From contig NC_092346.1 in the NCBI RefSeq assembly GCF_963676685.1, forward strand, positions 35,526,001-35,590,000: 64,000 nt of DNA, in the 5' to 3' direction. A program made the position numbers. Shown here one piece after another: positions 6,001-12,000 of the stretch (positions are counted from its first letter, which is position 1; every line of letters starts with the position of its first letter). Source of the DNA: Mytilus edulis. Taxonomy: Eukaryota.

Positions 6001-9000
6001 ATTTGATATGACTTTTTGAACAAGAACATCCCATAAACAAGCAGAGAACAAACCCCATCCTCTGTTTGGATTTTCCTCCTTTTCTTGATTTTCTGTGGCA
6101 TTAACTTGTCTACATGTTTACGTGTCTCTTCATCCCCATTATCTACCTGTAAATAAAAATAATAAGTTAATAGGTGAAACAAATCTTTGAAGTGTTCGAG
6201 TGGTCTAAGTAGTTCACTAGCATTGATCATTAACCTGTCAACACTCAGGTTTTGGAGTTTGAACCCCAGTCATAGCAGATCAAACTGCATAGGTCATTTC
6301 TTTATAAAACTTTAAAGTGAATATCTCTTAGTCCTAAACATTAATATGCGGAATTTGCATTCTAGGCCTAAGCTTTTTCAGAAAAAGCTGAAATTTTTTT
6401 TAGGCATATTTACCTAAATGGTCTTTCAACATAGTATGATTGTAATGTGGACAAAGGAAGATAACTCTGTTTTCAAACTATACTACTTTCACAAAGACAA
6501 TAATTTTAGAACATAACAAGGTGCATGCACCCTTCACATTTTATCTATATTTTTTTTTACATGCATGGTTATATAAATACATATAACTCTGCATATTTAA
6601 TATCTGAATTTATATTTCAATTGTAGATTTCTTGAAATATTAAGGGATATGATGTACAGATCGATCGAGTGTTTATCTCAAAAGTAGTGATAAAGTTTTT
6701 GAAAAATTGATAAGTATCAAGCAAGACATATTAGGGTTTGATACATCTGTGCAATCTTTCTCCCAATACTAGCAAGCATAAAATCTTCATTGAAGGGTAA
6801 TAACTCTCAAAAGGAGTCATTAAACATGTTAAATGGTTACAATCAGATTGGCATTTTGCAAATCTATTTCTATTCATTTTTGCAGTTGTTTCAATAAAGT
6901 TCAGTTAAAATACAAAAGACAAAAGCCATCACTTGAGAGACAATACCTCTGTAAGGATAGACATATATTTTTCTTACTTTTGCAATGCTAATATCAGTTT
7001 TGTAGAAACATAAAAAAGTCTAATTTGAAGGTATAAAAAACTCCTTTTAAAAGGGATTTGAGATGTAGCTCTACTGCTTGTGATCCTTTTAACTTGTACT
7101 GCTTTATTCCATTCCACTTTATTCCACAAATAATCGATTGCTGCATTTTAAGTTGAGATGATCTATTCAATAGATAACTATACCCAACAGTGCATCAATC
7201 AAATGTGTATCAATGTGAAAAATGCATAAGTAAGGTTACAAGGAAGAACAAGTGCCTTTTAAGCATAAAACCAAGGGACATTGTTGTACTTCATTAAAAT
7301 TAGTTCAATGGTTAAACTAACAAAGTAACAGACTGAATTACAATAAGTTGGTGTTGTTTTTAGTCTTTTGATTTATTTTTAAATGTGTAGAACCACAAGG
7401 AAAATTATTACAAATTCTTAATTGAACTGAGTGTTTTGGTAATGATCATAATGTCTATATGTTTTTTGCACCTAGATGTTGTTAAATGAATTGGGTACAC
7501 TCCATTTACTGTGGATTCATTTATTTTTGTGGTCATTTAATTTCGTGATTTTGCTGCAGTCATTATACAAGCCTTTATACAATTTGTCATCCATTGAACA
7601 TTTAATTTTGTGGTTCGCCTATAGCCACGAAATCCATGAAATTTGGTATCCAATGAATAATAATGAATCCACAGTATCTTGCTTTTCAAGAACATTATGA
7701 TCTTGAAAATCGTGAAAAGACCCACTTCTTAATTATTTAAAATTTTGCATTGACAATAATATCTTGGTGTAAACTTGATACACCCATGCGGCTCACACCT
7801 TCAAGGTGTATCTAATAAATAAAAAGGACAATAATGTATTGCAAAAGGTCAGTTGAGGTGAGATTATTAGTAGAAAATGATATAAACCATTCTAAATACA
7901 TAAATTTCAATATCTATTGTATTATAATCGATGTTCTCAAATTTAAATATAAATTTTATACAACCACTGATTTAAATGCTCATTGTTATCATGTTATTAG
8001 TATATTAACTCTAAGTACAAGGGCATTTAACTTGTTGATCTTAACAACCCCAAAATAGATCAAACAAGGAAGTGAATTATCTGACACACCTGACAAATAT
8101 GGCTTCCTCTCAGCCGTTTGGAGGAGGTCAAGTCCCTGTTAACTGTAAATTATGTGAAACAGATAGACCAATACAGTGGAAATGCATAGACTGCAGTATT
8201 CTGATGTGTGGTCATTGCAAGGAGAAGGTACATTCACAATTCAAAAATGCACAAGATCATAAGATCATAAAAAGAGAAGAGATTGGATTACATAGTGAAG
8301 AACTGGATTTTACCAATATCAAGTGTGATGAACATGCTGGACAATCATCATGCCTTTTCTGTAATACCTGTGACGTCCTTGTGTGTCCAACCTGTGTTGC
8401 TAAAGTTCATAAGAAGCATGATTTAATTGAAATTATTGATGAATACAAAATGAAAATTGATAAACTGAAAAAAGGACAAAATAAAATGCAAAAGAACAAC
8501 TTTAACATGAAAGAAAAGAGAAATGAGCTCAATAAACTTATGTCAGCAGAAAACTCAAAGTATTCAAAAGTAAGACAAGATATTCTTAAGCATGAGAAGA
8601 CTGTTAAAGAACAAGTAGACAAATATTTTAAGGAACTCTTAAATAAATTGGATCAAAGTCATGAAACTATTTTAACAACAGTTAAATCGGATCTTAATAC
8701 TATATCAATATTCACAAACCAGACAGAAGACAAAATCAACCAAGTCCAAGATTTTATTGAGATTACCAGTGCTACTGATTTCTTCAAAGGTGTTAAAGAG
8801 ATGGAGAATTCTACTGAAATCCAAAAACCACGAACCAAGCCAAGCTACACTTCTTCACCAAAATTTGTTCCAGGGAATGTTACCCAATCTCACATTGGAT
8901 CATTACAAGATGATTGGAACTTGTTATCAGAAATAAACATCTCCCTAATCATCAATAATCAATATCTGACTGAACTTGAAGCAATATTACATGTAAGTCC

Positions 9001-12000
9001 ATGCCTTGACCGGTCAATTTGGATAAGTTCTGGTAAACTTGGAATATTACAGAGAGTAAAACCTGAAGGAACCAATCTGAAGGTGCTGTCTACATTCAAT
9101 ATTGTAGTATATGGAATGGCAATTACCCATTCTTATCAACTGCTTCTGTGTGTTAAAGACAAAACAAGGTTACAACAAATCAGCAGTACTGGTGAACTGA
9201 CTGAATCTGTTTATGATGTAAAACCTTTCTTTCCCATAGCCATACATGTTATCAGTGAAAATAAACTTATAGTTGGAGCTTATGATAGAGAACTAAAAAT
9301 AGGTGCTGTGATAATTATGAACAAGAAAGGAGACAAGGAGGCTGTATATGAACATGATGAACATAATCAACCTTTTTTTAATAACCCTATGAATATAACC
9401 ACTACCTGTAATGGAAATATATATGTATTCGATAAGATTTCAGATGATTGGAATGATAAAGTAGTGGTCTTAGGACCAGGAGGTCATATAATAAACCAAT
9501 ACACAGGTCATTCAACCATTAACAGGCATGTACCATTCAAACCAGTAGACATTGTGAAAACACCAAGTGACAATGTTGTTGTGATAGATCTGAGTACCCA
9601 AATCTTACACATCCTCAATGACAATGGTAATTTTATTTCATATTTCAATACCAAGGACATAGGAATCAAATTTCCATATTCTATTGCTATCAACACAATA
9701 GGACAACTTTATATAGGATGTGGTAGGGCTGCAGGTAGTCAAACTAAAGATGCAAAGCTATATGAAATAAACATTGCAGGATTCTAAAACATTCAAAACA
9801 CAACTTTGATAGAAGCTTGAAAAAAAAGCAAAAGGTTTTCATGTCATCTGAAAACTGAACCATAAAACTTAAATAAAAAGATAAAAATGAAAACAACACT
9901 TAAAGCATCTTAAACTCTGTTCTTACCGTAGCTACATCAGGAACTCTGAAGTCCAAATGTATGAAAGCCTATGAATCTACTTCAAATTGGGAAATTATAA
10001 CTCATCATTACTCCATTTACCGCTTGTCTTTCCTTTATGATGTCATCTTCTTAAGTTTTGTACATTTTTCTCAGTAGTTAATGGATTTAGAAGATTTCGT
10101 TATGTCTAATGGTAGTGTATGCACCAAATGTTCAATTGAAAAAAGCAACAGAAGAGTTCCTAATTTTTAAGTGCAATCTTACAGATTAGATATACATGTT
10201 TTCACTAAATATGTTATTCATATGGAGAGTATCATAGTGCATTCCAAGCCTTCAAAATAAATTGTCTGATATTCTGTATACAGAGGTATTAACTAAAGTG
10301 CAATTTCATTATCACAGATCTGAATCATTTATTGAAAAATCTGTGAAAATCAAATAAATCCATTTTTAAGGCAAATACTTATGAAATTAATGAAAAGTGA
10401 TTTTTTTCTTCATAAAAATAGTTTCATAGTTAATTTGTGTATGCACATTAAAAACAAAAAATTGGACTGGAAAACTGTAAATAAATGTGACAAACATTTG
10501 AAAAGTTATTGGATGCCTGATGATGATATTTAATGGACACATACAATACTTATATCAAAACACATGTACTAAGATACTGAACTAATAGAATTGTAACTTA
10601 TTTTTACAATCAAGATGAAGAACTATGACACTCGTGTTATCCTATTGGATATATACCTATTTGGAACATGATATTCACAGTGTGCTAGTGGAAACCAGGC
10701 AGAACTATGAAGTATGAACCTTTTGTTGCTTATTACATTTCCGATGATTTGTGAAACAGACTATTTACCAGAACATTAAATTTCTATGAACAATCTATTC
10801 TAATGTCATTTACAGAAATGGAAATTAACTTTGAACATGAAATACAATATGAACATGATGACAGTATGCTGTGTGAAAATTAAATCATTCCCTTTGATTA
10901 TTGTGATGTGTTGAATTATTTTTTTTTTCATTTATTAAGGTTTTATATAATTTATCAAACTATATTTAGCAAGAGGGAAATATAGTAGTGTTGATTTTCA
11001 TAAAAGCTTGAAGTGTTACATTTTGAATAATTTTCAGTATTTTAGATGTAATTATTTTTTTTAAAAATTAGAATTGCATACTTAGAATTTAGCTGTAAAT
11101 AATAGGTGTTGATTTTGATAGCAGTAGTTAAGAAAAGGCATTAATTGTTATTTCACATTACTTGAGATATAAGGGGCATATATACAATACTGTCAGAAGG
11201 GAGTTAATAACTTTGCTAACATAAATGTAGGTTTTTTTGTGACGTTATAATGTGACATATTGGGGAAAATGTGCATGGACCCCTCTTTTGGATTATTAAA
11301 TGTACCATTTTTTATGAACAAATCACAGATAATTTTTTTCAACTTAAACAAATATTCAACGAAAATGCTATTTTTTTCTTAAATCTTGAAAATTTTATTT
11401 TTCCAATTCATTGTTACATAAATTTAGAGCACACTTGTCCACAAAATATTCTTTTTTTCTTCCTTTAAATCATCCACTGATCTTTTGTCACAAAACAGTT
11501 AGAGATGTTTTTAGTAAATGTCTAATATTTCAAATGCATTTATCTCTAATATTAGAAGAACTGAAAGGTATCTTATATTCTATTACATATTGGAATTGAC
11601 TAGGCATGGTAGGTGTAAAATAGCTTGTATGCCATATTTAAAAAAAAGAAAGTTAAACTTAGATATATGTTAGAAACATGCTAGACAGTCAATTTAAATA
11701 TAAAGTTATGTGCAGTAGTTTTAAGCTTTTAGGTTAAGAATGACATTTTATATCTGGAATTGTGTATTATTTTAATCTGTTTCAACTGATCAATTATGAG
11801 CTAACTTGTTGAAATATGAATACTTGTTTAATAAACATATTTTGGAGTACTTTATGCTTGACAAATGACACCCCCCTCCCCCAAGAAGAGAAATCTTTGA
11901 AAAAGTATATATACAACAAAATTAGTAAAAAAAAAGTTGTTTCAGGCTCAGTCATCTATTTTTTTTCAGTTGGTTTGACATTTATGAAAATCTTATTTTG

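What the first reader, a model, noticed from the sequence alone, without database searches (positions are those of the whole stretch)
8940..11600. Propeller-coding DNA is more diverged than the neighbouring non-coding DNA
Seen: the copy 1 propeller differs from copies 2 and 3 at roughly a quarter or more of residues (by eye). The ~2 kb of non-coding DNA just downstream (about 10.0-11.6, 26.0-27.7 and 49.0-51.0 kb) is nearly identical in all three copies. One patch differs in all three: AILHV..GKLG / AIAFI..GNHG / RIAFV..GAYK. Known: NHL propellers of TRIM-NHL proteins bind RNA or protein on their top face. Inference: diversifying selection on a ligand-binding surface, or recent homogenisation of a conserved 3' region.
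Basis: partly seen in the sequence, partly recalled or inferred. Interest (0 to 1): 0.7.

Follow-up and report, generated by a model that had tools for sequence, protein, structure and literature searches.

The report
Mosaic tandem mussel TRIM-NHL-like genes
Three neighbouring mussel genes for a B-box/coiled-coil/NHL-propeller protein look more diverged than the DNA behind them because recombination between the copies gave different stretches different ages, not because the propeller evolved unusually fast.

Summary
The copy 1 propeller differs from copies 2 and 3 at 27% of residues (14% of bases). The DNA from about 170 bp past the stop codon onward differs by only 1.5-4% in all three pairs.

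The cause is different ancestry along the sequence, not fast protein evolution:
- Synonymous divergence in the propeller (dS 0.22-0.28) is 5-7 times the flank divergence (0.04), and dN/dS is below 1 (0.6 overall, 0.84 in top-face loops).
- The diverged tract runs 171-177 bp past the stop codon, and two further breakpoints lie inside the coding sequence (permutation p<=0.0005 each).
- Copies 2 and 3 are closer in blades 2-6 (1.2%) than in their flank (3.4%).
- The copy 1 propeller sits outside the clade of copies 2 and 3 (AU p=0.004).

The "non-coding" flank is intron of a co-duplicated crooked-neck-like pseudogene fragment on the minus strand.

Across 36 Mytilus paralogs, variability concentrates on the propeller's top-face loops (1.15 vs 0.54 bits, p=1e-5). 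Diversification of a binding face is therefore plausible for the family, but it does not explain this contrast.

The result is ordinary mosaic evolution in a tandem array of a RING-less, lineage-expanded family.

The parts
8099..9787 (+). Copy 1 (c1) single-exon gene, 562 aa plus stop: B-box1, B-box2, coiled coil and six-bladed NHL-type propeller; no RING.
   Evidence: ORF. Pfam PF00643 and PF22586 only. AF2 helix 97-219 and 24 strands at 282-560.
8942..9784 (+). c1 propeller-coding part (aa 282-562).
   Evidence: pLDDT about 90. Best Foldseek PDB matches are the NHL domains of TRIM2, TRIM3, Lin41/TRIM71, Thin, Brat and Mei-P26, TM(target) about 0.65-0.73. The family profile matches the TRIM2 NHL domain at E=4.5e-8.
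8981..9046 (+). The patch that differs in all three copies (aa 295-316). It covers the loop from strand d of blade 6 to strand a of blade 1, the start of that strand a, and the b-c loop of blade 1. All lie on the top face.
   Evidence: Positions 313, 295, 297 and 314 are among the 15 most variable of 281 propeller positions in 36 paralogs.
9788..9960 (+). First ~170 bp after the c1 stop, probably 3' UTR (AATAAA at 9872). It is as diverged from c2/c3 as the coding sequence.
   Evidence: 27/172 and 26/172 differences, against 5/181 for c2-c3. Max-chi-square breakpoints at 9958 and 9964, permutation p<=0.0005.
9961..13136 (.). Low-divergence ('young') block, part 1 (c1 coordinates). It is 94-99% identical in all three pairs as far as ~12780. 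Beyond that, c1 falls to 87-89% against c2/c3.
   Evidence: No Pfam, Rfam or tRNA hit. It lies in an intron of the minus-strand crooked-neck-like fragment.
13137..14820 (.). Insertion found only in copy 1; it interrupts the young block.
   Evidence: Self-BLAST chain: 13136 joins c2 29193 and 14821 joins c2 29184.
14821..17150 (.). Low-divergence block, part 2 (94-97% in all three pairs). It contains two crooked-neck-like exons.
24133..25827 (+). Copy 2 (c2) gene, 564 aa. The 5' end up to about codon 85 is c1-like. From about codon 348 it is c3-like.
47124..48818 (+). Copy 3 (c3) gene, 564 aa. Its N-terminal 200 residues are 97-99% identical to M. galloprovincialis P0004.
26009..31427 (.). Copy 2 counterpart of the low-divergence block (start approximate).
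49000..55383 (.). Copy 3 counterpart of the low-divergence block (start approximate). It has extra DNA at 50216-50595 and 51078-51879; the latter matches the repeat at 41907-45150.
5367..17708 (-). Unit 1 crooked-neck-like (CRNKL1) exon copies: 17550-17708, 16863-17111, 15517-15684, 6054-6173 and 5367-5492. They correspond to aa 436-674 of P0223. c1 lies in the intron between 15517 and 6173.
   Evidence: tblastn of P0223, read exon by exon. Pfam HAT-repeat hit PF23231, 36.8 bits.
20995..35793 (-). Unit 2 crooked-neck-like exon copies (aa 208-674 of P0223). Several carry in-frame stops or a frameshift. c2 lies in the corresponding intron.
40730..61504 (-). Unit 3 crooked-neck-like exon copies (aa 208-674 of P0223). 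There is an in-frame stop in the exon at 53748-53918. c3 lies in the corresponding intron.

Best explanation
The window holds three units of a tandem repeat from a Mytilus edulis chromosome. Each unit is a 3' fragment of a crooked-neck-like splicing-factor gene on the minus strand. In one of its introns, on the plus strand, sits an intronless gene for a RING-less B-box/coiled-coil/NHL-propeller protein.

The units are mosaics. Recombination between copies (gene conversion or unequal crossing-over) has left some stretches with recent common ancestry, about 2-5% apart. Other stretches have old ancestry, about 12-25% apart with dS 0.2-0.4.

For copy 1 against copies 2 and 3, the propeller and the first ~170 bp after it lie in an old stretch. 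The next 5.5 kb or more lie in a young stretch.

Shown here: the strata, their breakpoints, the switching tree shapes and the host pseudogene.

Inferred: that the young block was homogenised, rather than the coding part replaced. Also inferred: that the proteins act as coiled-coil dimers that recognise varied ligands through the hypervariable top face of the propeller.
For: (1) Synonymous divergence far exceeds flank divergence. Propeller dS is 0.23 (c1-c2) and 0.26 (c1-c3), against flank K2P of 0.041. Fisher p=6e-12 and 3e-14.

(2) dN/dS is below 1: 0.6 for the propeller, 0.84 for top loops, 0.5 for the rest and 0.22-0.28 for the N-terminal half.

(3) Breakpoints ignore gene structure (each permutation p<=0.0005 of 2000 shuffles).
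- c1 vs c2 and c1 vs c3 drop from 14% to 3.6% at c1 9958 and 9964, which is 171-177 bp past the stop.
- c1-c2 rises from 3.5% to 13.6% at 8353 (codon 85).
- c2-c3 drops from 12.5% to 1.2% at 9140 (codon 348).

(4) Site patterns switch in blocks.
- 7876-8340: c3 is the odd copy at 69 sites; the other patterns account for 15.
- 8341-8950: mixed (45/27/35).
- 9131-9787: c1 is the odd copy at 81 sites; the other patterns account for 10.

(5) Trees disagree between gene parts.
- aa 1-130: c1 is sister to c2 (SH-aLRT 92) and c3 is sister to M. galloprovincialis P0004 (100).
- aa 346-562: c2+c3+P0004 form a clade (100/98) with c1 outside. The AU test rejects a c1+c2+c3 clade (lnL difference 67, p=0.004).
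- In a search with the c1 propeller alone, 12 proteins rank above c2, and 10 of them come from the same M. edulis chromosome.

(6) Internal control. Where c2 and c3 share a young history, the coding dS of 0.022 is close to the flank value of 0.025-0.035. The flank therefore evolves at about the neutral rate.

(7) Old strata also occur in non-coding DNA upstream: 75-92% identity at 4886-6888.

(8) The young block spans pseudogene exons with in-frame stops.
Against: - For c1-c2 the young stratum covers more of the alignable non-coding DNA (roughly 5.7 kb) than the old one (roughly 2.6 kb). Which stratum is 'the exception' is therefore not settled.
- A block of more than 5 kb is long for a classical conversion tract.
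- dN/dS rises towards the top face. Single 40-codon windows show dN above dS: aa 261-300 at 0.17 vs 0.04, and aa 339-378 at 0.22 vs 0.14-0.16.
- The 3' breakpoint lies only ~90 bp beyond the first AATAAA. A process tied to transcription would give a similar edge.
- Differences in the flank are mildly over-dispersed (index 1.5-2.5 over 23 windows).
- Only three DNA copies could be compared. Nei-Gojobori and YN00 estimates on 30% G+C DNA are rough.
- The propeller tree used LG+G4 and its bootstrap had not fully settled. The N-terminal tree was a quick search.
Confidence: 0.8

Rival explanations
1. A recent segmental triplication (about 4% ago) was followed by replacement of coding and upstream segments with diverged sequence from other family members on the chromosome. 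This is ectopic gene conversion acting as a diversity generator.
For: - The young stratum is the larger part of the alignable non-coding DNA, and its differences are star-like with similar size in all three pairs.
- At least 16 further full-length paralogs lie on the same M. edulis chromosome.
- Family members are visibly mosaic. P0004 has a c3-type N-terminus with a c2-type early propeller. P0007 and P0026 share the c2/c3 C-terminal blades. P0014 shares the c2 patch.
Against: - No donor was found. The closest relative of the c1 propeller among 82 hits is 78% identical, including annotated proteins of the same chromosome.
- Segment-wise best matches for the c1 propeller are 77-86%.
- Old strata also lie in upstream DNA that is not part of the TRIM-like gene.
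- Unannotated, lost or haplotype-specific donors could not be searched.
Confidence: 0.2
2. Diversifying (positive) selection on the ligand-binding top face of the propeller made the coding DNA diverge faster than the neutral flank.
For: - Family-wide entropy is 1.15 bits in top loops (81 positions), against 0.54 in bottom loops (50) and 0.62 in strands (150). Mann-Whitney p=1e-5 (top vs bottom) and 1e-7 (top vs strands). The 9 most variable positions are all in top loops.
- dN/dS in top loops is 0.84, not distinguishable from 1 (p=0.54), against 0.5 and 0.25 elsewhere.
- The three-way patch lies on the top face.
Against: - dS itself is 5-7 times the flank divergence.
- No class of sites has dN/dS significantly above 1.
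- The diverged tract includes ~170 bp beyond the stop.
- c1 vs c2/c3 replacements are not enriched on the top face: 26/81 vs 15/50, p=0.85.
- c2 and c3 are nearly identical over blades 2-6.
- The c1 branch in the tree is of ordinary length, 0.25 against a median of 0.23.
Confidence: 0.1
3. The downstream DNA is kept alike by purifying selection, as a long 3' UTR, a regulatory region or functional parts of the host gene.
For: - The block is more alike than most other non-coding DNA of the unit.
- It holds crooked-neck-like exons.
- Mild over-dispersion of differences.
Against: - The c2-c3 control shows flank divergence at least as high as synonymous divergence of equal age.
- The true 3' UTR candidate (9788-9960) is the diverged part.
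- Host exons in the block carry in-frame stops in units 2 and 3.
- No Rfam family was found.
- Small indels occur throughout.
Confidence: 0.05
4. Assembly artefact: the 'copies' are uncollapsed haplotypes or a mis-join.
For: Mytilus genomes are highly heterozygous (recalled, from no call). The young block's 2-5% divergence is in an allelic range.
Against: - The units differ by kilobase insertions, different satellites and unit lengths of 16-24 kb. Upstream identity is only 75-92%.
- The three proteins differ by 12-24%.
Confidence: 0.03

Closest known systems
TRIM-NHL proteins (TRIM2, TRIM3, TRIM71/LIN-41, Brat, Mei-P26, Thin)
   Same: - Two B-boxes, a long coiled coil and a C-terminal six-bladed NHL-type propeller.
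- The best structural matches are their NHL domains. The family profile matches the TRIM2 NHL domain at E=4.5e-8 and the TIF1-beta B-box/coiled coil at E=3e-9.
- In Brat the top face, made of the b-c and d-a loops, is the RNA-binding platform (PMC4015489, passages read).
   Different: - No RING and no filamin domain.
- Pfam's NHL repeat model does not reach threshold in c1-c3.
- Identity to solved NHL domains is 12-19%.
- The family is single-exon, tandemly arrayed, and has at least 19 close copies on one chromosome. The classical members are few and conserved.
- Net charge of the top loops varies from -9 to +9 across the family: c1 +1, c2 -6, c3 -1. In the RNA binders it is uniformly positive.
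Concerted or mosaic evolution of tandem multigene families by gene conversion and unequal crossing-over
   Same: Block-wise switches of which copies are alike, sharp breakpoints that ignore codons and gene ends, and flanks more alike than genes.
   Different: - The homogeneous block is long (more than 5.5 kb) and lies in the intron of a co-duplicated host pseudogene.
- The direction of exchange and the donors are unknown.
Snake-venom multigene families in which exons are more diverged than introns (three-finger toxins, 'segment switching in exons'; PMC2474615, abstract and passages read)
   Same: Paralogs whose introns and flanks are more than 85% alike while parts of the coding sequence differ strongly. 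Coding segments are shared in a patchwork among paralogs.
   Different: - There the authors invoke accelerated change confined to exons.
- Here synonymous sites and 170 bp of non-coding DNA share the high divergence, and dN/dS is below 1.
Lineage-specific TRIM expansions with variable recognition domains (primate TRIM5 cluster, fish finTRIM; recalled, not read here. Primate TRIM gene birth with gene conversion: PMC3228819, search listing only)
   Same: Tandem, young, species-variable TRIM-like genes whose C-terminal recognition domain varies in its surface loops.
   Different: - The recognition domain here is an NHL propeller, not B30.2/SPRY.
- There is no RING.
- Positive selection is not shown.

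Membership tests
TRIM-NHL (class VII TRIM) | N-terminal RING finger | tested here: not met
   No RING family among the Pfam hits for c1, c2 or c3. The first zinc-binding module, at residues 16-56, matches a B-box (PF22586). The ORF has only 18 codons upstream of the ATG.
TRIM-NHL (class VII TRIM) | B-box zinc finger(s) | tested here: met
   PF00643 at 42.6-48.7 bits (cut-off 24.1). PF22586 at 34.5 and 30.4 bits in c1 and c2 (cut-off 27), and 26.5 in c3, just below. The Cys/His columns are invariant in 38 sequences.
TRIM-NHL (class VII TRIM) | Coiled coil after the B-boxes | tested here: inconclusive
   AF2 predicts one helix at 97-219, but with pLDDT 42-73. The profile match to the TIF1-beta B-box/coiled coil covers 14-198. 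Dimer formation was not tested.
TRIM-NHL (class VII TRIM) | Six-bladed NHL beta-propeller at the C-terminus | tested here: met
   24 strands at 282-560 with pLDDT about 90. Foldseek top hits are NHL domains, E about 1e-12, TM(target) 0.65-0.73. The profile matches the TRIM2 NHL domain at E=4.5e-8. Pfam PF01436 was not detected in c1-c3 but is precomputed for some relatives.
TRIM-NHL (class VII TRIM) | RNA binding through an electropositive top face | not testable with these tools
   Only a crude count was possible. Net charge of the top loops is +1, -6 and -1 in c1-c3, and -9 to +9 in the family. The criterion comes from PMC4015489.
Gene-conversion / unequal-crossover mosaic in a tandem array | Different parts of the alignment support different relationships among copies | tested here: met
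   Site patterns, the trees for the N-terminus and the propeller, and the AU test at p=0.004.
Gene-conversion / unequal-crossover mosaic in a tandem array | Abrupt change of divergence at breakpoints unrelated to codon position or gene ends | tested here: met
   Max-chi-square breakpoints at 8353, 9140 and 9958/9964. In each of five tests, none of 2000 shuffles reached the observed value.
Gene-conversion / unequal-crossover mosaic in a tandem array | Identified donor and recipient tracts | tested here: inconclusive
   c1-c2 (5' end) and c2-c3 (3' part) share tracts, but the direction is unknown. No outside donor for the c1 propeller was found among 82 hits. DNA of other paralogs was not available.
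Positively selected recognition domain (TRIM5/finTRIM type) | Codons with dN/dS above 1 | tested here: not met
   Pairwise dN/dS is 0.84 in top loops (p=0.54-0.56 against 1), with c2-c3 at 1.2 on 14 changes. Site models over many paralogs were not run because no DNA was available.
Positively selected recognition domain (TRIM5/finTRIM type) | Variable positions clustered on the ligand-binding surface | tested here: met
   At the family level, top loops show 1.15 bits against 0.54 for bottom loops, p=1e-5. It is not met for c1 vs c2/c3 alone (p=0.85).

The most novel reading that the evidence does not exclude
The array is a cassette system for innate recognition. Young tandem units keep near-identical intronic flanks that promote mispairing. 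Segments of the NHL top face are shuffled among about twenty paralogs by ectopic conversion. Each mussel haplotype would then carry a combinatorial set of RING-less B-box/coiled-coil/NHL receptors or decoys. This would be an NHL-based counterpart of B30.2-based TRIM diversification.
Probability: 0.15. Interest if true: 0.75.

Novelty: new member of a known kind. Interest (0 to 1): 0.38.

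Why it matters
The finding is a warning case. "Coding more diverged than flank" is often read as accelerated protein evolution. Here a synonymous-site count, breakpoint mapping and domain-wise trees show it to be a recombination mosaic.

It also documents two further points:
- A Mytilus-specific, RING-less B-box/coiled-coil/NHL family has its variability on the face that binds RNA in Brat. This is a testable lead for ligand diversity in bivalve innate immunity.
- The genes are nested in duplicated fragments of a splicing-factor gene.

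Six of my eight literature searches were aimed at a description of this family. None returned one. They cover open-access full text only.

Tried and rejected
- Independent transposon insertion behind each gene. Rejected: homology continues across the 9960 boundary at lower identity, and shared indels run through the block.
- Functional RNA in the flank. No Rfam family at gathering score and no tRNA in the window.
- Protein-coding remnants in the flank. Of 6 ORFs of 75 aa or more in 9790-17200, 5 had no Pfam hit. One gave the HAT-repeat hit that led to the crooked-neck-like exons.
- Hypermutation of the transcribed region. Considered because the 3' edge lies near the poly(A) signal. Rejected as the main cause because tree shapes switch in blocks and c1 does not group with c2/c3 on a long branch.
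- Literature. PMC4759782, PMC4346834 and bioRxiv 10.1101/2024.09.09.611967 contain 'trim' only as read or alignment trimming.
- One line used a count I had estimated by hand (8/645). It is replaced by the exact count.
- Not done: codon site models over all paralogs. Only protein sequences of paralogs outside the window were on hand, and no eukaryotic DNA collection was available.
The prokaryotic genome collection was not used.
- Supplementary files of papers were closed. The transcript lists of PMC9892467 were not seen.

Full report
WHAT IS THERE. The window has no N and is about 30% G+C. It comes from a Mytilus edulis chromosome-scale contig and is not human. Two of its proteins are recognised as the window's own on a contig of 107,021,180 bp, and all named relatives are Mytilus.

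A self-comparison shows three tandem units of about 16-24 kb, starting near 4.9, 20.3 and 40.1 kb. Each unit carries one intact single-exon ORF on the plus strand:
- c1, 8099-9787, 562 aa
- c2, 24133-25827, 564 aa
- c3, 47124-48818, 564 aa

Pfam finds two B-boxes and nothing else. There is no RING, and the NHL repeat model is not reached.

An AlphaFold2 model of c1, built on a 38-sequence alignment, gives a long helix at 97-219 with low confidence. It gives 24 strands at 282-560 with pLDDT about 90. The best PDB matches of the model are the NHL propellers of TRIM2, TRIM3, Lin41/TRIM71, Thin, Brat and Mei-P26. The family profile matches the TRIM2 NHL domain at E=4.5e-8 and the TIF1-beta B-box/coiled coil at E=3e-9. 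The proteins are therefore TRIM-NHL-like but RING-less.

THE OBSERVATION. It is confirmed.
- The c1 propeller differs from c2 at 74/277 residues and from c3 at 76/277.
- From about c1 9961 to 11640 the three copies differ by 1.5-4%.
- The three-way patch is at aa 295-299 and 312-316.

Three caveats apply:
- The first ~170 bp after the c1 stop are as diverged as the gene: 27/172 and 26/172.
- c3 has extra DNA at 50216-50595 and 51078-51879.
- For c2 against c3 the contrast is reversed over blades 2-6: 8/644 against 41/1194, p=0.006.

WHY THE CODING DNA IS MORE DIVERGED. If faster protein evolution were the cause, the excess would sit at replacement sites and stop at the stop codon. It does neither.

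Synonymous divergence in the propeller is 0.23-0.26. In the N-terminal half it is 0.27-0.44. The flank is at 0.04, with Fisher p=6e-12 and 3e-14. dN/dS is 0.6 in the propeller and 0.22-0.28 in the N-terminal half.

Max-chi-square scans place the breakpoints as follows (none of 2000 shuffles reached any observed value):
- c1 vs c2 and c1 vs c3 drop from 14% to 3.6% at c1 9958 and 9964, which is 171-177 bp past the stop.
- c1-c2 steps up at 8353 (codon 85, inside B-box 2).
- c2-c3 steps down at 9140 (codon 348, blade 2).

The pattern of which copy is the odd one out switches in blocks:
- c3 is the odd copy up to ~8340.
- The pattern is mixed from 8341 to ~9090.
- c1 is the odd copy from ~9090 to ~9960 (81 sites against 10 within 9131-9787).

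Protein trees agree with this.
- In aa 1-130, c1 pairs with c2, and c3 pairs with M. galloprovincialis P0004 (quick search, SH-aLRT 92 and 100).
- In aa 346-562, c2, c3 and P0004 form a clade (100/98) and c1 lies outside it.
- The AU test rejects a c1+c2+c3 clade at p=0.004. That tree used LG+G4, its bootstrap had not fully settled, and I had already seen the segment identities when I named the group.
- A search with the c1 propeller alone ranks 12 proteins above c2, 10 of them from the same chromosome. The best is 78% identical.

The c1 propeller is therefore an old lineage of ordinary branch length, not a fast-evolving recent copy.

THE FLANK. The low-divergence block is not a 2-kb 3' region. 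After a c1-only insertion at 13137-14820 it resumes and runs to c1 17150 at 94-97% in all three pairs. Upstream of the genes, non-coding identity is 75-92%.

An ORF inside the block hit HAT repeats of Syf1/CRNKL1. Its relatives are crooked neck-like proteins, including M. edulis P0223 on the same contig. A tblastn of P0223, read exon by exon, finds minus-strand exon copies in every unit:
- Unit 1 has copies for aa 436-674.
- Units 2 and 3 have copies for aa 208-674.
- Several copies in units 2 and 3 carry in-frame stops or a frameshift.

Each TRIM-like gene lies in the intron between the exon for aa 548-603 and the exon for aa 600-632. The "non-coding DNA downstream" is thus intron of a co-duplicated pseudogene fragment.

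The block looks young rather than constrained. Where c2 and c3 share the young history, coding dS (0.022) is no higher than flank divergence (0.025-0.035). No Rfam family or tRNA is present. Differences are only mildly over-dispersed.

WHICH PART CHANGED? Two histories fit.
- History A: old paralogs whose intronic flank was homogenised.
- History B: a recent triplication whose gene parts were overwritten from other paralogs.

For A: no donor for the old tracts was found, and old strata also occur in upstream non-gene DNA. For B: the young stratum is the larger share of alignable non-coding DNA, and family members are visibly mosaic. I put A at roughly 0.6 and B at 0.2 within the recombination explanation. 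The DNA of other paralogs would decide it, and it was not available.

IS THE TOP FACE DIVERSIFYING? I assigned the 24 strands to six blades (a to d) from their order. The two-residue hairpins at 324-325 and 387-388 must lie within a blade, because an inter-blade d-a connection needs more residues. This fixes which loops share a face.

By the definition in the Brat paper, the b-c and d-a loops form the top face, which is Brat's RNA-binding platform (PMC4015489, Figure 5 legend and text passages).

Over 36 paralogs (38 aligned, minus the two outgroup rows), mean entropy is:
- 1.15 bits in top loops (81 positions)
- 0.54 bits in bottom loops (50 positions)
- 0.62 bits in strands (150 positions)

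The tests give p=1e-5 (top vs bottom) and p=1e-7 (top vs strands).

dN/dS is 0.84 in top loops and not different from 1. It is 0.5 in the rest of the propeller, with p=0.03 and 0.01 against 1. Replacements between c1 and c2/c3 are not enriched on the top face (p=0.85). Net charge of the top loops ranges from -9 to +9 in the family, unlike the uniformly positive face described for RNA-binding TRIM-NHL proteins.

So the family varies where a ligand would bind, through relaxed constraint, positive selection or both. This does not produce the coding-versus-flank contrast.

CONTEXT.
- TRIM2/3-like transcripts are numerous and infection-responsive in oysters (PMC9892467, passages read).
- A patchwork of exon segments with conserved introns has been described in snake three-finger toxin genes (PMC2474615, abstract and passages).
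- Of eight literature searches, six were aimed at a description of this Mytilus family or of NHL hypervariability in bivalves. None returned one. sought the Brat and venom comparisons. The searches cover open-access full text only, and supplements were closed.

VERDICT. Its cause is a recombination mosaic in a tandem array, a known kind of event. The diversifying-selection reading is not supported as the cause, but it remains a reasonable and testable property of the family's top face. The alignment used 35 of the 120 listed hits (P0002-P0035 as ingroup, P0039 and P0040 as outgroup). The partial hits P0036-P0038 and the more distant hits were left out.

Noticed in passing
window 5367-61504, minus strand (exon list under parts): Three partial copies of a crooked neck-like (CRNKL1) splicing-factor gene, each with a TRIM-like gene nested in one intron. 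Units 2 and 3 have in-frame stops. No copy matches the annotated M. edulis protein P0223 in every exon, so the working gene is probably elsewhere on the chromosome.
   Followed up: partly
window 5341-5541, 20935-21135, 40730-40855: The last crooked-neck-like exon is 97-99% identical between units (1-4 differences in 126 bases). Its surroundings are 75-88% identical. This is either a small island of constraint or a further conversion tract.
   Followed up: partly
window 859-2091 (+) and 2152-3324 (-): Two transposon-type ORFs. One carries a YqaJ-like recombinase/exonuclease domain. The other carries a Harbinger-type DDE_Tnp_4 transposase with an HTH domain.
   Followed up: no
window 21798-23005: A 126-bp satellite, 9.6 copies at 87% match, present in unit 2 only. 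It accounts for the open frame at 22470-22961.
   Followed up: no
window 41907-45150 and 51072-51884: A repeat with internal periods of about 0.55 and 1.2 kb lies upstream of c3. One 0.8-kb copy (94% identical) is also inserted in c3's downstream block.
   Followed up: no
window 6889-7875 and 13137-14820: Two stretches present only in unit 1, absent at the matching places of unit 2. They are likely insertions. The one ORF tested, 13572-13880, has no Pfam hit.
   Followed up: no
proteins P0004, P0007, P0026, P0014 (M. galloprovincialis): Relatives in the sister species are themselves patchworks of c1-, c2- and c3-type segments. For example, P0004 is 97-99% like c3 in aa 1-200 but closer to c2 in aa 286-420.
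   Followed up: partly
window 9872; 25912 and 25941; 48903 and 48932: The first poly(A) signals lie 85-115 bp after the stop codons. The c1 divergence edge at about 9960 is ~90 bp further on, near the likely end of the transcript.
   Followed up: no
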